Below are positions 1 to 56,113 of a stretch of 64,000 nucleotides of DNA, piece after piece (the first letter of the stretch is position 1; each line of letters starts with the position of its first letter). The notes under the pieces were generated by a model. The model made no database searches and had not been told where the DNA came from. It worked only from the letters and a program-made list of their open reading frames with translations. Location of the stretch: NCBI RefSeq assembly GCF_050920415.1, contig NZ_CP169309.1; one strand, given 5' to 3'. The position numbers were made by a program, and so were the translations under genes. This stretch comes from Escherichia coli. GTDB taxonomy: Bacteria > Pseudomonadota > Gammaproteobacteria > Enterobacterales > Enterobacteriaceae.

Positions 1-41
1 TCGACGGCGGCTTAAGTATGCCGCGCTTCTGAGGCTGAATC

Positions 42-884
42 ATGAGAGATCTGTTACAACGCCCGGATTTATTCAGTATCAATACTGCGACACTGGGCTA
101 TAAAACGCCGCTACCTGCCATTATTGATGCCTGCGCCGCACGCGGTATTGGCGCGATTGCCCCCTGGCGCAGGGAGTTGCAGGGTGAAGATCTCCAGCAA
201 ATCGCCCGCCAGCTTGCTGCCAGTAACATGAGCGTTTCCGGTTTGTGTCGTAGCACCTATTACACCGCGCCGACGCTGACGGAACGCAAACTGGCGATTG
301 ATGATAACCGCCGGGCGCTGGACGACGCCGCTGTACTGAACGCCGCCTGTTATATGCAGGTGGTTGGCGGTCTGCCAATGGGAACAAAAGATCTGTACGA
401 AGCACGGGAACAGGTGAAACAAGGGATTCGCCAGTTGCTGCCACATTCGAAAGAGGTCGGCGTGCCAATTGCACTGGAGCCACTGCACCCGATGACTGCT
501 GCCGATCGTTCTTGTCTGTGCACATTACGTCAGGCGCTGGACTGGTGTGATGAACTCGATCCCGATGGCGAATTTGGCCTCGGCGTGGCGGTAGATGTCT
601 ACCATGTCTGGTGGGACCCGGATCTCGCCAGTCAGATCCTGCGTGCCGGAAAACGCATCCTCGCGTTTCATGTTTCCGACTGGCTGGTGCCAACCACCGA
701 TTTAGTCAATGATCGGGGAATGCCGGGAGATGGCGTCATTAATATTCCCTCTATTCGTCGGCTGGTTGAAAACGCCGGATTTAATGGCGCTATTGAACTG
801 GAAATATTCTCGCCGTACTGGTGGCAGAAAGATATTAACAGCACGCTGGATATTAGCGTCGATCGCATCGCGCATTATTGCTAA
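42..884 (+). CDS. sugar-phosphate isomerase/epimerase-like TIM-barrel protein (xylose-isomerase-like fold), 280 aa
   Basis: ORF 42-884 with GAGG 7 nt upstream of ATG. Motifs such as AFHVSDW and IELEIFSP fit the xylose-isomerase-like TIM barrel family. In-frame stop at 30-32 excludes a longer N-terminus. First gene of a tightly packed plus-strand operon. Confidence 0.7.
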   Translation: MRDLLQRPDLFSINTATLGYKTPLPAIIDACAARGIGAIAPWRRELQGEDLQQIARQLAASNMSVSGLCRSTYYTAPTLTERKLAIDDNRRALDDAAVLNAACYMQVVGGLPMGTKDLYEAREQVKQGIRQLLPHSKEVGVPIALEPLHPMTAADRSCLCTLRQALDWCDELDPDGEFGLGVAVDVYHVWWDPDLASQILRAGKRILAFHVSDWLVPTTDLVNDRGMPGDGVINIPSIRRLVENAGFNGAIELEIFSPYWWQKDINSTLDISVDRIAHYC

Positions 885-893
885 GGAATGATC

Positions 894-1670
894 ATGAGTG
901 ACCAACCCGTTCTGTTCAGCAGAGCGGCGGCTTCCTGCCGCCTGACATTGAACCGTGAAGATAAATGTCATGCTATTAATGAAGAAATGATCGAATCTCT
1001 CGACCATTATTTAAATGAAATTGAAAACGACACCACATTACGATTAGTCGAATTAACGGCAACCGGCGATAAATTCTTTTGTGCGGGCGGCGATATTAAA
1101 TCGTGGTCAGCCTATTCGCCATTAGATATGGGCAGAAAATGGATTAAACGCGGCAATGACGTTTTTAATCGCCTGCGCAATTTACCTCAATTAACGGTTG
1201 CGAATCTCAACGGTCATACTATCGGCGGTGGTATTGAACTTGCCTTGTGCTGCGATATTCGTATTGCCCGCCCCAGTGCGAAATTCTCTAATCCGGAAGT
1301 AATGCTCGGCATGGTGCCTGGCTGGATGGGCATTGAACGCGTGCTTAATCAGGTCGGTCCGGTGGTCGGTCGCCAGATGCTGATGCTGGGTAAACGCCTG
1401 ACGGCGCAGGAAGCTCAGGCGGCGAATTTAATTGATGAAGTGGTAGAAAAAGAACAGGTGGAAAGCTGGATGGCGAATCAGTTAGCGCAGCTGGAAAAAT
1501 GCGGTCCGGTGGCGCTCGCACATATCAAGCAACTGATTCTGGCTCTAGAAAATAAACATGCTGATTACCCGCACCAGTTACTGGCTGGATTAATGTCCGC
1601 CACTCAGGATTGCCAGCAGGCGACGCGCGCATTTGCCGAAAAAAGTAGCGTGAGCTTCCAAAATCAATAA
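894..1670 (+). CDS. enoyl-CoA hydratase/isomerase (crotonase) family protein, about 258 aa
   Basis: Crotonase-fold motifs FCAGGDIKSW and GHTIGGGIELALCCDIRIA. AAGGA at 883-887 sits 6 nt before the ATG at 894; the ORF-track start at 888 would leave no spacer. Confidence 0.72.
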   Translation: MSDQPVLFSRAAASCRLTLNREDKCHAINEEMIESLDHYLNEIENDTTLRLVELTATGDKFFCAGGDIKSWSAYSPLDMGRKWIKRGNDVFNRLRNLPQLTVANLNGHTIGGGIELALCCDIRIARPSAKFSNPEVMLGMVPGWMGIERVLNQVGPVVGRQMLMLGKRLTAQEAQAANLIDEVVEKEQVESWMANQLAQLEKCGPVALAHIKQLILALENKHADYPHQLLAGLMSATQDCQQATRAFAEKSSVSFQNQ

Positions 1671-1679
1671 GGAAATTGT

Positions 1680-3221
1680 ATGCGTAAGATAACAACCGCC
1701 GAGACACTGGCGGCGCAAATTCAGGACGGCGCAACCATTGCCATTAGCGGTAATGGCGGCGGCATGGTGGAAGCGGACCATATTCTGGCTGCTATTGAAG
1801 CGCGTTTCCTGCAAACCGGACACCCGCGCGATCTGACATTAATCCACTCGCTGGGCATTGGCGATCGCGACTGCAAAGGCACTAACCGCTTCGCTCATGC
1901 AGATATGCTCAAACGCATCATTGCCGGACATTTTACCTGGTCGCCCAAGATGCAGGATCTGGTGAAAAACAATGCTATTGAAGCCTACTGCTTCCCTGGT
2001 GGCGTAATTCAGGCACTGCTGCGGGAGATCGGTGCCGGACGTCCAGGGCTTTTTACCCACGTTGGACTGGGATCGTTTGTTGATCCGCGCAACGGCGGCG
2101 GTAAGTCGAACGCCAGCACCACTGAGGATCTGGTAGAACTGATTGAAATCGACGGTGAAACCAAACTTCGTTATCGCCCTTTCAAAGTGGATTACGCGAT
2201 TTTGCGTGGCACTTATGCTGATCCGCGTGGCAACGTCAGCCTCGAAGAAGAGGCGATTGATATGGATAGCTATTCCATGGCGCTGGCAGCACACAACAGC
2301 GGCGGCAAAGTGTTCGTACAGGTGCGCGATGTGCTGGAAGCTGGTGCCATTGAACCACGCCGGGTCAAATTACCGGGCATTCTGGTTGATGGCATCGTTG
2401 AACACCGCGAACAACCACAAACCTATCTTGGCGGTTACGATCTGACCATTAGCGGTCAGCATCGCCGTCTAAGTTCTAACGACGCAATTGAACTGGTTAG
2501 TCATCCGGTGCGCCGCCTGATTGCCCGTCGGGCAGCACGCGAACTGGTAGCTGGCGCTTCAACCAACTTTGGCTTTGGCATTCCCGGCGGCATTCCTGGG
2601 GTTGCACTGCGCGAAGGCGTGCCTTATCAAAGTTTATGGCTGAGCGTCGAGCAAGGCGTGCATAACGGTATGATGCTGGATGATGCTCTGTTCGGCTGCG
2701 CCCGTAACGCCGATGCCATTATTCCATCACTCGATCAATTCGAATTCTACAGTGGCGGAGGGATCGATATCACCTTCCTCGGCATGGGAGAGATGGATCA
2801 GCATGGTAACGTCAACGTCTCCCATCTCAATGGCAATCTCATTGGCCCCGGCGGATTTCTCGAAATTGCGCAAAACGCCCGTAAAGTGGTGTTCTGTGGC
2901 ACGTTCGACGCCAAAGGTAGCAAGATTGATGTAACACCAGATGGCTTGCATATCGCCCAGTCAGGTCAAATCCCTAAACTGGTTACCCAGGTGGAAAAAA
3001 TCACTTTTAGCGCCGCCTACGCACAGCAAAGCGGTCAGGAAGTGTTGTATATCACTGAACGTGCAGTATTCCAGTTAACGGCAGAAGGCGTTGAATTAAT
3101 TGAAATCGCGCCGGGTGTGGAGATTGAACGCGACATTCTGCCGCATATGGCTTTCCGTCCAATTATCAATCAGCCACGCCTGATGGAAAGTAGCCTGTTT
3201 ACGCCGATGGAGGATGCATGA
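1680..3221 (+). CDS. CoA-transferase (family I, acetyl-CoA hydrolase/transferase-like), 513 aa
   Basis: ORF with TAAGGA 6 nt upstream. Size and Gly-rich N-terminal region (ISGNGGGM) resemble YdiF-type acyl-CoA:acetate CoA-transferases. Family call from memory, not searched. Confidence 0.6.
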   Translation: MRKITTAETLAAQIQDGATIAISGNGGGMVEADHILAAIEARFLQTGHPRDLTLIHSLGIGDRDCKGTNRFAHADMLKRIIAGHFTWSPKMQDLVKNNAIEAYCFPGGVIQALLREIGAGRPGLFTHVGLGSFVDPRNGGGKSNASTTEDLVELIEIDGETKLRYRPFKVDYAILRGTYADPRGNVSLEEEAIDMDSYSMALAAHNSGGKVFVQVRDVLEAGAIEPRRVKLPGILVDGIVEHREQPQTYLGGYDLTISGQHRRLSSNDAIELVSHPVRRLIARRAARELVAGASTNFGFGIPGGIPGVALREGVPYQSLWLSVEQGVHNGMMLDDALFGCARNADAIIPSLDQFEFYSGGGIDITFLGMGEMDQHGNVNVSHLNGNLIGPGGFLEIAQNARKVVFCGTFDAKGSKIDVTPDGLHIAQSGQIPKLVTQVEKITFSAAYAQQSGQEVLYITERAVFQLTAEGVELIEIAPGVEIERDILPHMAFRPIINQPRLMESSLFTPMEDA

Positions 3222-5299
3222 GTCAGCTTGATGACACCCTCCTTGATGCGCTGACGCACGTCACTTTCCCGAAGGGTTTTGTGTCAGCAGAGCCAGCGTC
3301 AATTGTCACGGTTGAAGATGTCGATTACCCGATCTGGCAAGTTGATGCGCTAGTCGTTGGTAGCGGCGCGGCAGGGCTGCGCGCAGCGGTTGAACTTAAG
3401 CGCCGCCAGCAAAATGTGCTGATCGCCACCGCCGGGTTATATATGGGGACATCGGCATGTTCTGGTTCCGATAAACAGACGCTGTTTACCGCCGCTACCG
3501 CGGGCAACGGCGATAACTTCGCTAAACTGGCGGAAGCACTGGCGAGCGGTGGGGCGATGGATCACGACACCGCTTATGTCGAAGCGGTAGGTTCTCTGCA
3601 CACTCTTGGCGGGTTGCAATATCTTGGTCTGGAATTACCGGAAGATCGCTATGGCGCAATTCTTCGTTATCAAACCGACCATGACGAAGCCGGGCGAGCA
3701 ACCTCGTGTGGGCCGCGTACTTCTCGCCTAATGGTGAAAGTATTGCTGGAGGAAGTGCAGCGTCTTGCCATACCACTACTGACCAGTGCAACGGTGATTA
3801 AGCTCCTGCATCAGCACGGAGAGAATGGCGAAGATCGCGTTGCGGGGGCTATTCTCGCAACCGGTTCCCGCGCCTATAACCCTTGGGGGCTGGCTATTGT
3901 GACGGCGCCCAATGTGGTACTGGCAACGGGCGGACCGGGCGAGCTTTATCGCGACAGTGTTTATCCACATAAATGCTTCGGCTCGCTGGGGCTGGCGCTG
4001 GAAGAAGGTCTGACGCTAACCAATCTGACCGAAAGCCAGTTTGGTATAGGCACGCCGCGCAGCACGTTTCCGTGGAATTTGTCCGGCACCTATGTACAGG
4101 TGATCCCATATATCTATTCCGTGGATGCCGGGGGCAACGAGTATAACTTCCTCGCAGATTACTATCGCACCACCCAGGAGCTGGCTTCAAACATCTTCCG
4201 TAAAGGCTATCAGTGGCCGTTTCACGCCACACGAGTGATGGATTTTGGCTCCAGCTTGTTAGATATGGCAGTAGCGCAAGAGCAGCAATCAGGGCGTCAG
4301 GTATTTATGGATTTCAATCGCAATCCTGAACCTGTGCCGGGTGACCTGCCGTTCTCATTAGATCGACTGGACGACGACGTTCGCGCGTATCTGGAAAATA
4401 ACGACGCTCTGGCACCATCGCCCATCGAACGACTGCAACGAATGAATCCGCTGTCTATCTCGCTGTATAAGATGCACGGTTACGATCTCACCACGCAGCC
4501 ATTGCAGTTTGCCATGAATAATCAGCATATGAATGGCGGCATTGAAGTGGATATCTGGGGGCAAACCTCCCTGTCCGGCTGTTTCGCCGTGGGGGAAGTT
4601 GCTGGCACACACGGCGTCACTCGCCCTGGTGGTGCGGCATTGAATGCCGGGCAGGTTTTTGCTGTTCGTCTGGCACGTTTTATTGGTTGCACGCAAAAGC
4701 GGTCCGTTGAGGATGATGTCGCGCAGCTAGTAGCCTCACCTCTGCATACAATCAGAGAAGTTATCGCTCAGGCACTGGCAAACGAGAACGGAATGACGCT
4801 GGCAACGGTAAAAGAAAAAATCCAGGCGCGAATGTCTGATTACGCGGGATTTATTTGCCATGCTGATAAAGTTCGTCACGCCGCCCGTGACGCCATGCTG
4901 TTAAATGAATTTGCGCAGCAACATGGTCTAACTATCAACCACGCCGGTGAAATTGCCGAGCTATTTATGTGGCGGCATATGGCATTAACATCCGCTGCGG
5001 TGTTAAGCCAGCTATCACATTATATTGATGCTGGCGGTGGTAGTCGTGGAGCGCGGATGATTATTGATCCACAAGGAGAATATCTTCCACAAACTCGTCG
5101 CGGCGCAATCGAAGATTGGCGTTTTCGCTCTGAACAAGCTGAAGATAAAAATCACAGACTAACTCTCTCCTTTTCACAAGGTTTATTTATTAATGAAATT
5201 AAGTTCTTGAGAAACTTACCGCATATTAAAGGTATTTACTTTGAGAAGAATTGGCCTGATTTTCTTAACGGAACAATTTATCAGACACGGCATGAATAA
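3218..5299 (+). CDS. FAD-dependent oxidoreductase, fumarate-reductase/succinate-dehydrogenase flavoprotein-like fold, 693 aa
   Basis: Start overlaps the upstream stop (ATGA) with GGAGGA RBS. Dinucleotide-binding motif VVGSGAAGLRAAVEL near the N-terminus and an ATGGPGELY segment typical of FAD-binding-2 enzymes. No signal peptide; the last ~250 aa are not recognisable. Confidence 0.62.
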   Translation: MSQLDDTLLDALTHVTFPKGFVSAEPASIVTVEDVDYPIWQVDALVVGSGAAGLRAAVELKRRQQNVLIATAGLYMGTSACSGSDKQTLFTAATAGNGDNFAKLAEALASGGAMDHDTAYVEAVGSLHTLGGLQYLGLELPEDRYGAILRYQTDHDEAGRATSCGPRTSRLMVKVLLEEVQRLAIPLLTSATVIKLLHQHGENGEDRVAGAILATGSRAYNPWGLAIVTAPNVVLATGGPGELYRDSVYPHKCFGSLGLALEEGLTLTNLTESQFGIGTPRSTFPWNLSGTYVQVIPYIYSVDAGGNEYNFLADYYRTTQELASNIFRKGYQWPFHATRVMDFGSSLLDMAVAQEQQSGRQVFMDFNRNPEPVPGDLPFSLDRLDDDVRAYLENNDALAPSPIERLQRMNPLSISLYKMHGYDLTTQPLQFAMNNQHMNGGIEVDIWGQTSLSGCFAVGEVAGTHGVTRPGGAALNAGQVFAVRLARFIGCTQKRSVEDDVAQLVASPLHTIREVIAQALANENGMTLATVKEKIQARMSDYAGFICHADKVRHAARDAMLLNEFAQQHGLTINHAGEIAELFMWRHMALTSAAVLSQLSHYIDAGGGSRGARMIIDPQGEYLPQTRRGAIEDWRFRSEQAEDKNHRLTLSFSQGLFINEIKFLRNLPHIKGIYFEKNWPDFLNGTIYQTRHE

Positions 5300-5319
5300 T
5301 ATTGCAAAGGTTAATCACT

Positions 5320-5796
5320 ATGCGAAATATAATCAGATCTATTAATTCATTGCTTTCCACATTGAACATTACCATTTTGGCAATTATTGTGATGTGCGTT
5401 ACATGGCAAGTAGTAGCACGATTTATCTTTAAAAGCCCCAGCATTTTTACAGATGAACTTAGTCGTTTACTATTTATTTGTCTTGGACTTTTTGGTGGTG
5501 CTTATACTGCCGGACAAAACCGACATCTGGCCATTGATCTTCTGCCAATGATGCTAAAAGGAAAATCCCGACGTTATTTATTCTTATGTATTCAGGCCAT
5601 TGTTATTCTTTTTGCCTCTATCATTATGGTTTATGGTGGCGGGTTATTAACACTGGACACATTTGATTCAGGGCAAACTTCTCCGGCTTTAGGCTGGCAG
5701 ATGGGATATATTTACATGAGCATTCCAATAAGTGGCATCCTTATTATTATATACACCATAGATACAGTTTTAACCGAACTTAAACAACCACTCTAA
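5320..5796 (+). CDS. TRAP transporter small permease (DctQ-like), about 158 aa
   Basis: Small hydrophobic multi-TM protein immediately upstream of DctM-like and DctP-like genes. ATG at 5320 with AAAGG 9 nt upstream is preferred over the TTG at 5302. AT-rich coding sequence. Confidence 0.6.
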   Translation: MRNIIRSINSLLSTLNITILAIIVMCVTWQVVARFIFKSPSIFTDELSRLLFICLGLFGGAYTAGQNRHLAIDLLPMMLKGKSRRYLFLCIQAIVILFASIIMVYGGGLLTLDTFDSGQTSPALGWQMGYIYMSIPISGILIIIYTIDTVLTELKQPL

Positions 5797-5818
5797 AATA
5801 AGTAGGGATGGAGAAAAC

Positions 5819-7120
5819 ATGGATTACTGGTTACCGATCATTGTGTTATTTGGTGCTTTCTTTTTTATGTTGGCATTAGGTGTTCCTATTGTCTATGCTA
5901 TTGGTTTATCAACACTGGCATCAATTACTACACAACTCGATTTCAACTCAGCGTTAAGTGTGGTTTCCCAAAAGTTAGCCTCCGGGTTAGATAGTTTTAC
6001 GTTGTTGGCAATCCCATTTTTTATTTTGTCTGGCAACATTATGAATCACGGAGGAATAGCGCGACGATTAATCAACTTTGCCCGAATTCTCGGCGGTCGT
6101 CTGCCAGGCTCACTTGCCCACTGTAATATTCTTGCCAATATGCTGTTCGGGGCAATTTCTGGTTCAGCCGTGGCTTCGGCGGCTGCGATGGGCGGCGTCA
6201 TGCATCCGCAACAGGTTAAAGAGGGCTACGACCCGGCATTCAGTACTGCAGTTAACGTTGCCTCTGCCCCGACGGGTTTGCTTATTCCACCCAGTAATAC
6301 GTTAATCGTCTATTCACTGGTCAGTGGTGGTACTTCTATTGCCGCACTGTTCCTGGCAGGATATGTCCCGGGAATTTTATTGGGCCTGGCGCTGATGACT
6401 GTGGCTGGTATTATCGCGGTACGCCGGGGTTATCCAAAACCAGAACGTCCGACTTTGCGCCAGGCTGGAGTGGCAATATGGATGGCGATCCCCAGTATTT
6501 TCCTGATTGTATTAATTATGGGTGGTGTACTAAGCGGTATTTTTACCCCGACAGAAGCATCTGCAATTGCGGTAATTTATACCCTTTTCCTTGCACTGGT
6601 TCTTTATCGTGAAATATCAGTTAAAGATTTACCTAAGATATTTCTGGAGTCCGTCATTACCACTGCAATTGTCTTGTTGTTAATTGGTTCTTCAATGGGA
6701 ATGTCATGGGCAATGTCAAACGCTGACGTTCCCTTCCTGATTCTCGATTTGCTTAACACTATTTCTGACAATCCAATAATCATCCTGCTTATTATCAATA
6801 TTATCCTGTTGATTATCGGCACATTTATGGATATGACACCGGCAGTACTGATTTTTACGCCGATATTTTTACCCGTTGTCACCGAACTGGGTATGGACCC
6901 GATTCACTTTGGTATTGTCATGGTACTGAACATGTGTATCGGTATTTGTACTCCGCCTGTAGGCAGTGTGTTATTTGTCGGTTGTAGTGTATCTAAATTA
7001 CCGATTAATAAAATTATCAAACCTATGCTGCCATTCTATGCCGTGATGGTATTGGTGCTGGCAATGGTTACCTATATTCCGCAAATCAGTATGGCATTGC
7101 CAAGAGCACTGGGCTACTGA
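5819..7120 (+). CDS. TRAP transporter large permease (DctM-like), 433 aa
   Basis: 433-aa polytopic membrane protein with the size and hydrophobicity pattern of DctM-family permeases. GGATGGAG RBS; positioned between Q-like and P-like genes. Confidence 0.7.
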   Translation: MDYWLPIIVLFGAFFFMLALGVPIVYAIGLSTLASITTQLDFNSALSVVSQKLASGLDSFTLLAIPFFILSGNIMNHGGIARRLINFARILGGRLPGSLAHCNILANMLFGAISGSAVASAAAMGGVMHPQQVKEGYDPAFSTAVNVASAPTGLLIPPSNTLIVYSLVSGGTSIAALFLAGYVPGILLGLALMTVAGIIAVRRGYPKPERPTLRQAGVAIWMAIPSIFLIVLIMGGVLSGIFTPTEASAIAVIYTLFLALVLYREISVKDLPKIFLESVITTAIVLLLIGSSMGMSWAMSNADVPFLILDLLNTISDNPIIILLIINIILLIIGTFMDMTPAVLIFTPIFLPVVTELGMDPIHFGIVMVLNMCIGICTPPVGSVLFVGCSVSKLPINKIIKPMLPFYAVMVLVLAMVTYIPQISMALPRALGY

Positions 7121-7172
7121 TATGCATTAACTGGCGGCACCTGCCGCCATATTTATTAGAAAAGGAACATCT

Positions 7173-8144
7173 ATGAAAATAAAAGTATCCGCTGGCATTA
7201 TCGGTGCTGTTCTTATGCTATCCGCAAGCCAGTCCTGGGCAGTAACATTAAAACTTAGCCATAATCAGGATAAATCTCATCCTGTTCATAAAGCGATGGA
7301 GTTCTTTGCGAAAAAGAGCAAAGAGTACTCTAACGGTGATATTACTATTCGTATTTATCCAAATGGAACATTGGGTACTCAACGAGAAACAATGGAGCTG
7401 ATTCGTTCTGGTGCTATTCCGCTGGTAAAAACCAATGCGGCGGAGATGGAAGCCTTCGAGAGTTCGTATAAAATATTTAGCCTGCCTTATTTGTTCCGCG
7501 ATCGTGATCATTATTATCAGGTCATGCAAGGCGATATCGGAAGGAAAATCCTCGACTCAACGAAAAGCAAAGGTTATTTCGGGCTGACTTTCTATGATGG
7601 AGGCGCCCGCAGTTTCTACGGTAATAAACCGGTACTGAAACCAGACGATCTGAAAGGCATGAAAGTCCGTGTCCAGCCAAGTCCTGGCGCAGTTGAAATG
7701 ATCAAAGTCATGGGCGGTAACCCGACGCCACTGGATTACGGCGAGCTGTATACGGCCTTACAGCAGGGCGTGGTCGATATGGCAGAAAACAGCGTGATGG
7801 CACTGACCACTATGCGTCACGGTGAAGTGGCAAAATCCTTTAGCCTTGATGAGCACACCATGGTGCCCGATGTGGTTCTGATGAGTAATGCTGCATTTGA
7901 TAAACTCAGCCCTGAAAATCAGGCAGTTATATTAAAAGCAGCGAAAGAATCGATGAGTTACATGAAGGAGTTATGGAGCGAGCAAGAGAAACAAGAATTT
8001 GCAAAACTGGATAAAATGGGCGTAAAAGTCTACCCGGTTGATAAAGCACCGTTTATCGAGAAAGTACAACCGATGTACGCAAACTTCGCTAAAGATAACC
8101 CTGCCCTTGCCCCAATGCTGGCTGATATTCAGGCGGCTAAGTAA
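7173..8144 (+). CDS. TRAP transporter periplasmic substrate-binding protein (DctP-like), 323 aa
   Basis: N-terminal signal peptide (MKIKVSAGIIGAVLMLSASQSWA), size typical of DctP-family binding proteins, AAAGGA RBS. Last gene of the operon, convergent with rplI. Confidence 0.7.
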   Translation: MKIKVSAGIIGAVLMLSASQSWAVTLKLSHNQDKSHPVHKAMEFFAKKSKEYSNGDITIRIYPNGTLGTQRETMELIRSGAIPLVKTNAAEMEAFESSYKIFSLPYLFRDRDHYYQVMQGDIGRKILDSTKSKGYFGLTFYDGGARSFYGNKPVLKPDDLKGMKVRVQPSPGAVEMIKVMGGNPTPLDYGELYTALQQGVVDMAENSVMALTTMRHGEVAKSFSLDEHTMVPDVVLMSNAAFDKLSPENQAVILKAAKESMSYMKELWSEQEKQEFAKLDKMGVKVYPVDKAPFIEKVQPMYANFAKDNPALAPMLADIQAAK

Positions 8145-8201
8145 TTACCTTCATGGGGCTGCTTATTGTGGCCCTTATCGATATCAGCAAGTGCTCGCTA
8201 T

Positions 8202-8236
8202 AAAAGCAAAACGCCGACCAATGGTCGGCGTTTTTA
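8202..8236. terminator. bidirectional rho-independent terminator between the TRAP operon and rplI
   Basis: Perfect 8-bp stem CGCCGACC/GGTCGGCG (8212-8219 and 8223-8230), flanked by an A-run at 8202-8211 and TTTTT at 8231-8235. Confidence 0.8.
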
Positions 8237-8255
8237 CGTCTCGTTGAATAACGAA

Positions 8256-8717
<462 letters not shown>

Positions 8718-8746
8718 TCAAAGTCGTATTAATGGACCGTGACCGA

Positions 8747-9293
<547 letters not shown>

Positions 9294-53171: not shown

Positions 53172-54972
53172 GTGCAAACCTTTCAAGCCGATCTTGCCAT
53201 TGTAGGCGCCGGTGGCGCGGGATTACGTGCTGCAATTGCTGCCGCGCAGGCAAATCCAAATGCAAAAATCGCACTAATCTCAAAAGTATACCCTATGCGT
53301 AGCCATACCGTTGCTGCAGAAGGGGGCTCCGCCGCTGTCGCGCAGGATCATGACAGCTTCGAATATCACTTTCACGATACAGTAGCGGGTGGCGACTGGT
53401 TGTGTGAGCAGGATGTCGTGGATTATTTCGTCCACCACTGCCCAACCGAAATGACCCAACTGGAACTGTGGGGATGCCCATGGAGCCGTCGCCCGGATGG
53501 TAGCGTCAACGTACGTCGCTTCGGCGGCATGAAAATCGAGCGTACCTGGTTCGCCGCCGATAAGACCGGCTTCCATATGCTGCACACGCTGTTCCAGACC
53601 TCTCTGCAATTCCCGCAGATCCAGCGTTTTGACGAACATTTCGTGCTGGATATTCTGGTTGATGATGGTCATGTTCGCGGCCTGGTAGCAATGAACATGA
53701 TGGAAGGCACGCTGGTGCAGATCCGTGCTAACGCGGTCGTTATGGCTACCGGCGGTGCAGGTCGCGTTTATCGTTACAACACCAACGGCGGCATCGTTAC
53801 CGGTGACGGTATGGGTATGGCGCTAAGCCACGGCGTTCCGCTGCGTGACATGGAATTCGTTCAATATCACCCAACTGGTCTGCCAGGTTCCGGTATCCTG
53901 ATGACCGAAGGCTGCCGCGGTGAAGGCGGTATTCTGGTCAACAAAAATGGCTACCGTTATCTGCAAGATTACGGCATGGGTCCGGAAACTCCACTGGGCG
54001 AGCCGAAAAACAAATATATGGAACTGGGTCCACGCGACAAAGTTTCTCAGGCCTTCTGGCACGAATGGCGTAAAGGCAACACCATCTCCACACCGCGTGG
54101 CGATGTGGTTTATCTCGACCTGCGTCACCTCGGCGAGAAAAAACTGCATGAACGTCTGCCGTTCATCTGCGAACTGGCGAAAGCGTACGTTGGCGTCGAT
54201 CCGGTTAAAGAACCGATTCCAGTACGTCCGACCGCACACTACACCATGGGCGGTATCGAAACCGATCAGAACTGTGAAACCCGCATTAAAGGTCTGTTCG
54301 CCGTGGGTGAATGTTCCTCTGTTGGTCTGCACGGCGCAAACCGTCTGGGCTCCAACTCCCTGGCGGAACTGGTGGTCTTCGGTCGTCTGGCCGGTGAACA
54401 AGCGACAGAACGTGCAGCAACTGCCGGTAATGGCAACGAAGCGGCAATTGAAGCGCAGGCAGCTGGCGTTGAACAACGTCTGAAAGATCTGGTTAACCAG
54501 GATGGCGGCGAAAACTGGGCGAAGATCCGCGACGAAATGGGCCTGGCAATGGAAGAAGGTTGCGGTATCTACCGTACGCCGGAACTGATGCAGAAAACCA
54601 TCGACAAGCTGGCTGAGCTACAGGAACGCTTCAAGCGCGTGCGCATCACCGACACCTCCAGCGTGTTCAACACCGACCTGCTCTACACCATTGAACTGGG
54701 CCACGGTCTGAACGTTGCTGAATGTATGGCGCACTCTGCAATGGCACGTAAAGAGTCTCGCGGCGCGCACCAGCGCCTGGACGAAGGTTGCACCGAGCGT
54801 GACGACGTCAACTTCCTCAAACACACCCTCGCCTTCCGCGATGCTGATGGCACTACTCGCCTGGAGTACAGCGACGTGAAGATTACTACGCTGCCGCCAG
54901 CTAAACGCGTTTACGGTGGCGAAGCGGATGCAGCCGATAAGGCGGAAGCAGCCAATAAGAAGGAGAAGGCGA

Positions 54973-54980
<8 letters not shown>
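53172..54980 (+). CDS. frdA: fumarate reductase flavoprotein subunit
   Basis: 602-aa product (GTG start, GGAGGA RBS) [29 protein letters not shown]... Confidence 0.97.

Positions 54981-56113
<1,133 letters not shown>

What the first reader, a model, noticed from the sequence alone, without database searches (positions are those of the whole stretch)
3218..5299. Unusually long FRD-like flavoprotein with an unassigned ~250-aa C-terminal region
The N-terminal ~450 residues carry the dinucleotide-binding GxGxxG motif (VVGSGAAGLRAAVEL) and other features of fumarate-reductase/aspartate-oxidase/KstD-type FAD enzymes. The protein continues for roughly 250 more residues that I cannot assign. There is no signal peptide and no companion iron-sulfur or membrane-anchor subunit gene in the operon, so it is probably a soluble single-subunit enzyme.
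Basis: partly seen in the sequence, partly recalled or inferred. Interest (0 to 1): 0.45.

Follow-up and report, generated by a model that had tools for sequence, protein, structure and literature searches.

The report
Orphan SdhA-like flavoprotein, ordinary C-terminus
The gene is a real, soluble relative of the fumarate-reductase flavoprotein whose "unassigned" tail is just the normal end of that protein fold; what is still unknown is its substrate, which the surrounding genes suggest is an acidic sugar taken up by some E. coli strains.

Summary
The ORF (3218-5299, +, 693 aa) and its GxGxxG motif are real. The claim that made it a finding is not: the last ~220 residues are the ordinary helical and C-terminal domains of the SdhA/FrdA/NadB fold. 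A family profile aligns them to E. coli FrdA 341-563 and pig SdhA 349-601. hhalign against the FrdA in this same window gives 99.3% probability over query 39-646. An AlphaFold model (pLDDT 92) matches FrdA end to end (TM 0.79). A length of 693 aa lies within the family range (540-722).

The protein does belong to a large, uncharacterised clade with no Fe-S or anchor partner. In it the fumarate-reductase catalytic residues are replaced; only the Arg390 equivalent is kept. There is no histidine for covalent FAD.

In E. coli it sits in a TetR-controlled accessory island between ytfB and rplI, in about 27% of complete genomes. The gene order is SDR, TIM barrel, crotonase, YdiF-like CoA-transferase, flavoprotein, TRAP transporter.

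Both transporter types found with this island, and the contexts of relatives, point to an acidic sugar substrate. The reaction itself remains inferred.

Verdict: an ordinary architecture and an uncharacterised subfamily. Modest interest.

The parts
1..32 (+). Last 32 nt of the first operon gene, an SDR of the NF009386/PRK12745 '3-ketoacyl-ACP reductase' type. The gene starts upstream of the window, and a divergent TetR regulator lies further upstream.
   Evidence: RefSeq annotation of the identical locus L001. Pfam adh_short_C2. The orthologous SDRs in L018 and L079 reach 354 and 316 bits on NF009386, cut-off 250.
42..884 (+). Xylose-isomerase-like TIM barrel (AP_endonuc_2) of the SMc04130 type; reaction unknown.
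   Evidence: Pfam 129 bits. PDB 3qc0/3ju2 at 1e-85. The AF2 model (pLDDT 88) matches 3ju2 at TM 0.91-0.93; the next-best matches are IolI, the QuiC1-type fusion protein 5hmq and ketose epimerases.
888..1670 (+). Enoyl-CoA hydratase (crotonase) with both catalytic glutamates. The RefSeq start is at 894.
   Evidence: Pfam ECH_1 156 bits. Motifs GGGIELALCCD and NPEV read from the translation. Annotation.
1680..3221 (+). Fused class-I CoA-transferase, a YdiF paralogue. Its stop overlaps the flavoprotein start by 4 nt.
   Evidence: Pfam CoA_trans. NCBIfam FadX-like 385 bits. PDB 2ahu (YdiF) 4.5e-116.
3218..5299 (+). The flavoprotein ORF: 693 aa, SdhA/FrdA/NadB fold, orphan clade.
3218..3343 (+). 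N-terminal extension (aa 1-42) that precedes the Rossmann motif. It is conserved in the relatives that are 52-59% identical.
   Evidence: tblastn matches start at query residues 1-8 in L015-L053. The AF2 model shows a helix at 6-13 and strands at 28-41.
3344..4042 (+). FAD-binding domain, first part, plus the first capping segment (aa 43-275). It contains GSGAAG and the family motif GTSxxxGSDKQT. No histidine occupies the FrdA His44 position.
4043..4519 (+). Divergent capping-domain segment (aa 276-434) with family-invariant residues G276, S289, G290, K329, G330, W333, P334, S345, S346, D349 and R405. FrdA H232, T244 and R287 are replaced here.
   Evidence: HMM alignments to PDB chains break across this segment. 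Invariant columns. Residue map.
4520..4702 (+). FAD-binding domain, second part (aa 435-495). It holds QHxNGG (Q436 at the FrdA H355 position) and GTHGVTRPGG (R469 = FrdA R390).
4703..5032 (+). Helical domain (aa ~496-605), equivalent to FrdA ~415-516.
   Evidence: NCBIfam TfrA model aligns query 412-597 to model positions 322-504. Profile versus PDB. hhalign. AF2 helices 501-521, 528-542, 549-568 and 576-604.
5033..5296 (+). C-terminal domain (aa ~606-693) with the SRG motif (S609-R610-G611, matching FrdA ESRG) and a small beta-sheet.
5302..5796 (+). TRAP transporter small permease (DctQ). The RefSeq start is at 5320.
5819..7120 (+). TRAP transporter large permease (DctM).
7173..8144 (+). TRAP solute-binding protein. 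Its closest solved relatives are D-glucuronate and D-galacturonate binders.
   Evidence: Ligands of 4N8Y, 4X8R, 4N91 and 4MHF are taken from PMC11668362 and PMC7660916.

Best explanation
The ORF encodes a cytoplasmic, single-subunit flavoprotein with the complete four-domain SdhA/FrdA/NadB architecture: FAD-binding, capping, helical and C-terminal domains. Its FAD is predicted to be non-covalent.

It belongs to a large, uncharacterised clade that never has an Fe-S or membrane-anchor partner. In this clade the dicarboxylate-binding and proton-transfer residues of fumarate reductase are replaced. Only the arginine that holds the carboxylate next to flavin N5 (FrdA R390 = R469) is kept, together with a conserved Gln-His pair.

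It is therefore not a fumarate reductase or an aspartate oxidase. Most likely it is a soluble FAD-dependent dehydrogenase, or in reverse an ene-reductase. It would transfer a hydride between flavin N5 and the carbon next to the carboxylate of an imported acidic sugar-like compound of hexuronate or aldonate type. That means either oxidation of the alpha-hydroxy carbon, as NadB does at C-alpha, or alpha,beta-dehydrogenation, as SdhA does. The reduced flavin would be re-oxidised by a diffusible acceptor, as in NadB.

It works with the co-conserved SDR, which would handle keto/hydroxy interconversion, and the SMc04130-type TIM barrel, which would act as a keto-acid isomerase, epimerase or dehydratase. 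In Escherichia, Klebsiella and Salmonella a YdiF-like CoA-transferase and a true crotonase take a downstream acid to the CoA level.

Shown here: the fold, the domain assignment, the residue replacements, the orphan status, the operon, the island and its distribution, and the transporter types. Inferred: the substrate class, the reaction chemistry, the electron acceptor and the order of steps.
For: Fold and C-terminus. NCBIfam TfrA, NadB and SdhA models align out to residue ~597. BLASTP to the FrdA in this window covers query 225-608. The family profile matches FrdA 341-563 and pig SdhA 349-601. hhalign gives 99.3% probability over query 39-646 against FrdA 3-558. The AF2 model has pLDDT 92, and the top Foldseek hit is FrdA 5vpn_A (E 6e-31, TMt 0.79, 666 columns).

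Not a canonical enzyme. Every NCBIfam equivalog scores far below its cut-off, e.g. TfrA 127 bits against 718 and NadB 98-105 against 453-639. FrdA H44, H232, T244, R287 and H355 map to T78, G276, Q294, S345 and Q436, while R390 maps to the invariant R469. Residues 75-97 contain no histidine.

Orphan clade. There are 417 clusters at 50% identity with E<1e-30, typically ~600-700 aa. No FrdB homologue and no ferredoxin motif lies beside any member.

Sugar-acid link. The TRAP binding protein's best PDB relatives are glucuronate and galacturonate binders, and it keeps R146, R166 and N206. The same island in Klebsiella and Salmonella carries an ACS-family MFS of the 'D-galactonate transporter' subfamily instead (314-317 bits). 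Relatives sit beside KDG-kinase-type PfkB and KDPG-aldolase genes, UxaB/UxaE/UxaC/UxaA, GFO/IDH/MocA, GMC oxidoreductases and sugar ABC transporters.

Conserved partners. The SDR is present in 33 of 76 loci across phyla. In relatives 45-59% identical the cluster is TetR|SDR|(GFO)|TIM|transporter|FAD.
Against: No member of the clade has been characterised in anything I could search, so the chemistry is inferred from family-level analogy.

Gene contexts are heterogeneous. CoA-transferase, crotonase or MaoC, and acyl-CoA dehydrogenase with ETF recur with this protein in at least five lineages. The flavoprotein is also translationally coupled to the CoA-transferase here. A thioester substrate is therefore not excluded.

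Many members occur in strict anaerobes. There an NadB-like re-oxidation by O2 is impossible and the electron partner is unknown.

Keeping a single arginine is weak evidence for a free carboxylate. The binding-protein residue mapping rests on a constant numbering offset to a protein whose sequence I did not hold. E. coli already has the Uxa/Uxu route for glucuronate and galacturonate, so the true substrate must be something else.
Confidence: 0.5

Rival explanations
1. The flavoprotein works on a CoA thioester. It would be an enoyl-CoA reductase or acyl-CoA alpha,beta-dehydrogenase that replaces an acyl-CoA dehydrogenase in a beta-oxidation-like cycle: the transferase activates the acid, the flavoprotein desaturates or reduces it, the crotonase hydrates or dehydrates it, and the SDR oxidises or reduces the 3-position.
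For: There is a 4-nt overlap with the YdiF-like CoA-transferase. The crotonase has both catalytic glutamates. The SDR falls in a '3-ketoacyl reductase' family. CoA-transferase recurs next to the flavoprotein in a Clostridia MAG (L079), a Desulfobacterales MAG (L067) and Devosia (L040); MaoC with an acyl-CoA dehydrogenase and ETF recurs in L020 and L067. Proteins that fuse CoA_trans and FAD_binding_2 exist (P0024, P0031).
Against: Only about 6 of 76 non-redundant loci carry any CoA enzyme, whereas the SDR, and in closer relatives the TIM barrel, GFO, kinase and aldolase, recur without one. The 45%-identical relative has the same operon minus the crotonase and transferase. No SdhA-fold enzyme that I know of uses a CoA ester, and the carboxylate-binding arginine is invariant. 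L020 and L067 already encode their own acyl-CoA dehydrogenases.
Confidence: 0.22
2. It is a KstD-like desaturase that acts next to a ketone rather than next to a carboxylate. The SDR or GFO enzyme would first make a 3-keto sugar, anhydro-sugar or cyclitol. The flavoprotein would then introduce a conjugated C=C, and the TIM barrel would hydrate or isomerise the enone.
For: It co-occurs with a 383-aa GFO/IDH/MocA dehydrogenase whose weak matches are to inositol and levoglucosan dehydrogenases, with GMC oxidoreductases and with sugar ABC transporters. The TIM barrel's structural neighbours include IolI and the 3-keto-glucoside epimerase YcjR. From my own knowledge, KstD shares the FAD_binding_2 family. 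OYE-type ene-reductases are frequent neighbours in the 35-40% clade.
Against: The protein has the SdhA-type helical and C-terminal domains and the invariant R469, not the KstD architecture. The profile match to KstD (7p18) is marginal, at 1.8e-05 over the N-terminal motif only. The E. coli, Klebsiella and Salmonella transporters are carboxylate types.
Confidence: 0.15
3. It is simply an extra fumarate reductase / succinate dehydrogenase flavoprotein or L-aspartate oxidase paralogue, as some database names say ('succinate dehydrogenase flavoprotein subunit').
For: It has the same fold. Some sources name homologues this way.
Against: The catalytic and substrate residues are replaced: H232G, R287S, H355Q, T244Q, and no His44. 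All equivalog models score far below their cut-offs. There is no FrdB/SdhB partner in any locus. The genome already has frdABCD in this same window.
Confidence: 0.03

Closest known systems
E. coli fumarate reductase flavoprotein FrdA and succinate dehydrogenase SdhA (complex II flavoprotein)
   Same: The full four-domain fold, including the helical and C-terminal domains. The GxGxxG FAD site, the Arg390-equivalent (R469) and the C-terminal SRG motif are all present. Foldseek TM is 0.79 and hhalign probability is 99.3%.
   Different: Sequence identity is 16-22%. There is no His44, so no covalent FAD. H232, T244, R287 and H355 are replaced. There is no Fe-S subunit or membrane anchor. There is a 38-42 aa N-terminal extension, and the capping domain is longer and rebuilt with its own invariant motifs.
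L-aspartate oxidase NadB
   Same: It is soluble, single-subunit and predicted to bind FAD non-covalently. It has the same fold, including the helical domain. NadB gives the best profile-to-PDB E-value (1chu, 8e-30). It offers a plausible model for re-oxidation of the flavin by a diffusible acceptor.
   Different: NadB models score 98-105 bits against cut-offs of 453-639. NadB keeps the His/Arg catalytic set that this protein lacks (established knowledge of NadB; the replacements are shown). The genomic context is catabolic, not NAD biosynthesis.
Thiol:fumarate reductase subunit TfrA of methanogens (best NCBIfam hit)
   Same: It is the highest-scoring curated model (126.6 bits) and aligns through the helical domain (query 412-597).
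   Different: The score is far below the cut-off of 718. There is no TfrB-like Fe-S partner, the host is bacterial, and the fumarate-binding residues are replaced.
Soluble flavocytochrome-c-type 2-enoate reductases and KstD (Fcc3, urocanate reductase UrdA, 3-ketosteroid dehydrogenase)
   Same: They show the same principle: a FAD_binding_2 enzyme re-tuned to a non-fumarate substrate, working without complex-II partners. The N-terminal FAD domain matches weakly.
   Different: By my own knowledge of their architecture, those enzymes lack the SdhA-type helical and C-terminal domains. TIGR01813 scores 36.6 bits against a cut-off of 285. They keep the His/Arg/Arg fumarate-type set or have their own catalytic residues. 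UrdA-type enzymes receive electrons through FMN or haem domains, which are absent here.

Membership tests
SdhA/FrdA/NadB-fold flavoproteins (FAD_binding_2 plus helical C-terminal domain) | N-terminal GxGxxG dinucleotide-binding motif, and Pfam FAD_binding_2 above the gathering score | tested here: met
   VVGSGAAGL at residues 45-53. PF00890 scores 93.9 bits against 20.4, over residues 43-475.
SdhA/FrdA/NadB-fold flavoproteins (FAD_binding_2 plus helical C-terminal domain) | Helical domain and C-terminal domain following the FAD domain | tested here: met
   Pfam PF02910 does not hit the query and hits only 2 of 48 relatives. However, NCBIfam models, the profile-to-PDB search, hhalign and the AF2 model with Foldseek all align residues ~476-646 to these domains.
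Fumarate reductase / succinate dehydrogenase flavoprotein (functional FrdA/SdhA) | Histidine for 8-alpha-N3-histidyl covalent FAD (FrdA His44) | tested here: not met
   It aligns to T78 by hhalign, or to S84 in the NadB-anchored alignment. There is no His anywhere in residues 75-97.
Fumarate reductase / succinate dehydrogenase flavoprotein (functional FrdA/SdhA) | Substrate-binding and catalytic set His232, Thr244, Arg287, His355, Arg390 | tested here: not met
   The equivalents are G276, Q294, S345, Q436 and R469, so only the last is conserved. The alignment inside the capping domain is of lower confidence.
Fumarate reductase / succinate dehydrogenase flavoprotein (functional FrdA/SdhA) | Adjacent Fe-S subunit and membrane-anchor genes | tested here: not met
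   None is present in the operon. There is no FrdB homologue and no CxxCxxCxxxC neighbour in 92 loci.
Fumarate reductase / succinate dehydrogenase flavoprotein (functional FrdA/SdhA) | Score above the curated NCBIfam cut-offs | tested here: not met
   TIGR01812 scores 87 bits against 567; PRK09231 scores 43.7 against 854.
L-aspartate oxidase (NadB) | Score above the curated NadB cut-offs | tested here: not met
   TIGR00551 scores 98.4 bits against 452.75; PRK07804 scores 104.9 against 639.
L-aspartate oxidase (NadB) | Soluble, single-subunit, non-covalent FAD | tested here: met
   There is no partner gene, no signal peptide and no His44 equivalent. Whether the FAD is actually non-covalent needs the protein.
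Flavocytochrome-c-type soluble fumarate/enoate reductases | Score above the TIGR01813 cut-off, with an architecture lacking the SdhA helical domain | tested here: not met
   It scores 36.6 bits against 285.45, and the helical domain is present.
Enzymatic activity (any of the above) | Measured substrate turnover and flavin linkage | not testable with these tools
   This needs purified protein.

The most novel reading that the evidence does not exclude
The protein is the E. coli representative of a widespread, never-characterised clade of partner-less SdhA-fold flavoproteins with a rebuilt active site. This clade would catalyse a new FAD-dependent reaction on acidic sugars, for example oxidation at the carbon next to the carboxylate of a hexuronate or aldonate, or reduction of a cyclic 2-enoate. 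The ytfB-rplI island would then be an undescribed accessory catabolic route in Enterobacteriaceae that joins sugar-acid chemistry to CoA-thioester chemistry.
Probability: 0.3. Interest if true: 0.55.

Novelty: new member of a known kind. Interest (0 to 1): 0.3.

Why it matters
As stated, the finding (a novel C-terminal region) does not hold, so it has no architectural significance.

The residual value is in annotation and metabolism. Thousands of genomes carry this clade under the names 'FAD-binding protein' or, wrongly, 'succinate dehydrogenase flavoprotein subunit'.

About a quarter of complete E. coli genomes, and also Klebsiella oxytoca-group and some Salmonella genomes, carry it in a conserved, regulated island with a high-affinity acid transporter. 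Identifying the substrate would add a strain-variable nutrient niche for enteric bacteria and a new reaction type for the SdhA fold.

Tried and rejected
1. Literature. Ten full-text searches found no characterisation of the protein, the island or the SMc04130-type TIM barrel. They covered the ytfB/rplI island, gene-set keywords, PDB codes 7VPF, 3QC0 and 3JU2, S. meliloti locus tags, shikimate/cyclohexanecarboxylate and dihydroshikimate. The one 'rplI + island' hit (KguS/KguR, PMC3694859) concerns a different island, between tyrB and aphA.

2. Hydroaromatic-acid hypothesis. I considered a quinate/shikimate substrate: a YdiF paralogue, a TIM barrel resembling the QuiC1-type fusion protein 5hmq, a PcaK-like MFS in Brenneria, and an acyl-CoA dehydrogenase like cyclohexanecarbonyl-CoA dehydrogenase in L020. 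I did not adopt it. The Klebsiella and Salmonella transporter is of the ACS sugar-acid type, the TRAP binding protein keeps the hexuronate-contact residues, and relatives sit with KDG kinase and aldolase genes. It is not excluded.

3. TIM-barrel function. I tried to learn it by structure prediction and a PDB fold search. The three close structures are all structural-genomics or 'putative sugar isomerase' entries.

4. The afdb50 fold library was not available.

5. The Vetting et al. TRAP-screen paper could not be fetched. Ligand identities were taken instead from PMC7660916 and PMC11668362.

6. Pfam alone cannot settle the C-terminus, because PF02910 misses it. That is why the region looked unassigned.

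Full report
**Observation.**
The window carries an ATG-started ORF at 3218-5299 (+), 693 codons plus stop. The motif VVGSGAAGLRAAVEL lies at residues 45-59. Pfam FAD_binding_2 covers residues 43-475 at 93.9 bits, against a gathering score of 20.4. The window is 100% identical to the chromosome of E. coli MFDS1022581, where the same CDS is annotated WP_000080364.1, 'FAD-dependent oxidoreductase'. The gene is therefore real and intact. Close homologues exist across Escherichia (86-98% identity), Klebsiella oxytoca-group (79%) and Salmonella (77%).

**The C-terminal region.**
This is the point that made it a finding, and it does not hold. Pfam's Succ_DH_flav_C model misses the query and hits only 2 of 48 family members, which explains why the region looked unassigned. 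Every more sensitive test assigns it.
- NCBIfam TfrA, NadB and SdhA models align out to residue ~597.
- BLASTP against the genuine FrdA, which happens to lie in this same window (53172-54980), aligns query 225-608 with FrdA 181-512.
- A profile built from 48 family representatives (33-55% identity, alignment A1) matches E. coli FrdA 341-563 and pig SdhA 349-601 with its positions 394-635 of 661.
- hhalign of that profile against FrdA gives 99.3% probability over 513 columns, query 39-646 against FrdA 3-558.
- An AlphaFold2 model (pLDDT 92, pTM 0.93) matches FrdA and SdhA chains end to end. The best match is 5vpn_A, with E 6e-31, TM 0.79 normalised to FrdA and 666 alignment columns.
- The model's helices at 501-604, followed by a small sheet at 614-663, are the helical and C-terminal domains of the fold.

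The 91-residue excess over FrdA breaks down as about 36 residues at the N-terminus, about 52 internal (mainly in the capping domain) and 3 at the C-terminus. Solved family members range from 540 to 722 residues, so 693 is unremarkable.

**What is unusual.**
The divergent part is the capping domain and the active site, not the tail. HMM alignments to solved structures break across residues ~276-400. Yet this segment holds many of the family's invariant residues: G276, S289, G290, P297, K329, G330, W333, P334, S345, S346, D349 and R405.

Mapped on FrdA, the covalent-FAD histidine H44 falls on T78. In the NadB-anchored alignment it falls on S84. Residues 75-97 contain no histidine at all. The other catalytic positions map as follows:
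- H232 to G276
- T244 to Q294
- R287 (the proton shuttle) to S345
- H355 to Q436, with an invariant H437 next to it
- R390 to the invariant R469, the only one conserved

The alignment inside the capping domain is of lower confidence.

All curated NCBIfam equivalogs score far below their cut-offs. Examples are TfrA at 127 bits against 718, NadB at 98-105 against 453-639, and SdhA/FrdA at 87 against 567. The protein therefore has the SdhA/FrdA/NadB fold but is not a fumarate reductase, succinate dehydrogenase or aspartate oxidase.

**Family.**
An exhaustive HMMER search found 417 clusters (at 50% identity) with E<1e-30. Most are ~600-700 aa and align over the full length. Members occur in these groups:
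- Enterobacterales
- Rhizobiales
- Rhodobacteraceae
- Planctomycetota, Verrucomicrobiota and Lentisphaerota
- anaerobic Bacillota
- Aminicenantes
- Desulfobacterales
- a Lokiarchaeota MAG

Names in the source databases are generic ('FAD-binding protein') or borrowed ('succinate dehydrogenase flavoprotein subunit'). No neighbour ORF in any of the 92 loci examined resembles FrdB, and none of the ORFs directly flanking the 82 family members carries a ferredoxin-type cysteine motif. The clade is consistently without a partner.

**Context in E. coli.**
The ORF is the fifth gene of a tightly packed operon. The gene order is:
- SDR, whose last 32 nt are window 1-32
- TIM barrel, 42-884
- crotonase, 888/894-1670
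- YdiF-like CoA-transferase, 1680-3221, overlapping the flavoprotein start by 4 nt
- flavoprotein, 3218-5299
- TRAP Q, M and P, 5302/5320-8144

A divergent TetR gene lies upstream. The island sits between ytfB and rplI. It is present at 80% or more coverage in 1442 of 5426 complete E. coli genomes. Klebsiella and Salmonella carry the same island at the same site, but with an MFS transporter in place of the TRAP system.

The crotonase has both catalytic glutamates. The transferase matches YdiF at 4.5e-116. The TIM barrel is 50% identical to the uncharacterised S. meliloti protein SMc04130.

**Context elsewhere.**
I clustered the neighbours of 76 non-redundant family loci. The most frequent partners are:

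| Partner | Loci |
|---|---|
| SDR of the NF009386/PRK12745 family | 33 |
| 383-aa GFO/IDH/MocA dehydrogenase (PDB 3oqb) | 23 |
| LacI regulator | 19 |
| GMC oxidoreductase | 18 |
| Sugar ABC-transporter ATPase | 17 |
| OYE-type flavoprotein | 14 |
| KDPG-aldolase-like | 13 |
| SMc04130-type TIM barrel | 10 |
| PfkB kinases | 9 + 6 |

- A 45%-identical relative has TetR|SDR|FAD|TIM|TRAP, which is the E. coli operon without the two CoA genes.
- Other Enterobacterales (Pseudescherichia, Phytobacter, Escherichia sp. ESNIH1) have TetR|SDR|GFO|TIM|MFS|FAD.
- More distant members sit beside Eda and KdgK-type genes or a full UxaB/UxaE/UxaC/UxaA set.
- CoA enzymes recur only in a minority of loci: L079, L067, L040 and L020.

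**Substrate class.**
Two independent transporter types point to an acidic sugar.

First, the E. coli TRAP binding protein's closest solved relatives (E 1e-62 to 6e-73) are 4OVR, 4X8R, 4N8Y, 4N15 and 4N91. The papers I could read give the ligands:
- 4N8Y binds galacturonate (PMC11668362).
- 4X8R binds glucuronate (PMC11668362).
- 4N91 binds D-glucuronate (PMC7660916).
- 4MHF/4MIJ (Bpro_3107), also among the PDB hits at 2.5e-60, binds both (PMC7660916).

The window protein keeps R146, R166 and N206. Their spacing is the same as R150, R170 and N210, which that paper gives as the D-glucuronate contacts. N31, Q32 and D233 are also kept, and Q70 stands in place of Glu74. This mapping assumes a constant numbering offset and is therefore an inference.

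Second, the MFS that replaces the TRAP system in Klebsiella and Salmonella belongs to the ACS subfamily, 'D-galactonate transporter' (314-317 bits).

**Mechanism (inferred).**
The retained arginine, with the Gln-His pair, probably positions a substrate carboxylate so that the adjacent carbon faces flavin N5, as in the whole family. The rebuilt capping domain would then accommodate a polyhydroxylated remainder instead of a second carboxylate.

The reaction is most likely one of two kinds. One is oxidation at the alpha carbon, NadB-like, turning a 2-hydroxy acid into a 2-keto acid. The other is alpha,beta-dehydrogenation or enoate reduction, SdhA/FrdA-like.

The SDR, and in some relatives a D-2-hydroxyacid dehydrogenase, would interconvert keto and hydroxy groups. 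The TIM barrel's weak NCBIfam matches are to keto-acid isomerases and epimerases such as IolO, Hyi and OtnI, so it would move or invert a carbonyl. In enterics, the 3-ketoacid-type CoA-transferase and the crotonase would process a downstream acid.

With no Fe-S partner, the flavin is presumably re-oxidised by a diffusible acceptor, as in NadB. For the strictly anaerobic members the partner is unknown. I put about 0.5 on this general picture. I put about 0.22 on a CoA-thioester substrate, about 0.15 on a KstD-like desaturation next to a ketone, and about 0.03 on a canonical fumarate or aspartate enzyme.

**Novelty and verdict.**
The architecture is ordinary, and the feature as first described is explained away. 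What remains is an uncharacterised, widespread subfamily of a well-known fold, in a strain-variable catabolic island. None of the ten literature searches found a characterisation. I rate it 'new member of a known kind', interest 0.3.

Noticed in passing
window 53172-55707: The genuine fumarate reductase genes frdA (53172-54980) and frdB (54973-55707) lie in the same window. I used them as an internal comparator. The window therefore holds both the canonical enzyme and its divergent orphan relative.
   Followed up: yes
window 1-8144; loci L001, L093, L094: The operon is an accessory island inserted between ytfB and rplI, present in 1442 of 5426 complete E. coli genomes. Klebsiella oxytoca-group and Salmonella carry the same enzyme genes at the same site, but with an ACS-family MFS transporter and an extra EamA gene instead of the TRAP system. 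This is a transporter swap within one island.
   Followed up: partly
proteins P0024 (1078 aa) and P0031 (1043 aa): Database proteins exist that join a CoA_trans domain to the flavoprotein. Because the two genes overlap by ATGA, a single indel would fuse them. I did not check whether these are real fusions or frameshift or annotation artefacts.
   Followed up: no
window 8166-8732 and 8732-9064 (+): Two plus-strand ORFs of 188 and 110 aa have no Pfam or NCBIfam hit and lie antisense to rplI, rpsR and priB as annotated in RefSeq. They are almost certainly not genes.
   Followed up: partly
window 888 vs 894, and 5302 vs 5320: RefSeq starts the crotonase at 894 and the TRAP small permease at 5320, downstream of the first possible start codons listed by the ORF finder.
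   Followed up: no
L020 3327-10109; L067; L079: In a betaproteobacterial genome the flavoprotein and TIM barrel follow TRAP genes, a MaoC hydratase, an acyl-CoA dehydrogenase (best matches acryloyl-CoA reductase and cyclohexane-1-carbonyl-CoA dehydrogenase) and EtfBA. Desulfobacterales and Clostridia MAGs also combine the flavoprotein with YdiF-like transferases. The recurring CoA link is unexplained by the sugar-acid reading.
   Followed up: partly
L058, L069 (Phycisphaerae): Planctomycete members sit in SDR | KDPG-aldolase-like | BNR_4 (PF15892) | flavoprotein clusters. The role of the BNR_4 protein is unknown to me.
   Followed up: no
L017, L018, L019 and L026 (TIM barrel not detected in L019): Other Enterobacterales carry a paralogous cluster, TetR|SDR|GFO/IDH/MocA (383 aa, equal to PDB 3oqb)|TIM|MFS|FAD, at a different chromosomal site next to gltBD-like genes. 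In effect, the GFO gene occupies the place of the crotonase and CoA-transferase genes.
   Followed up: partly
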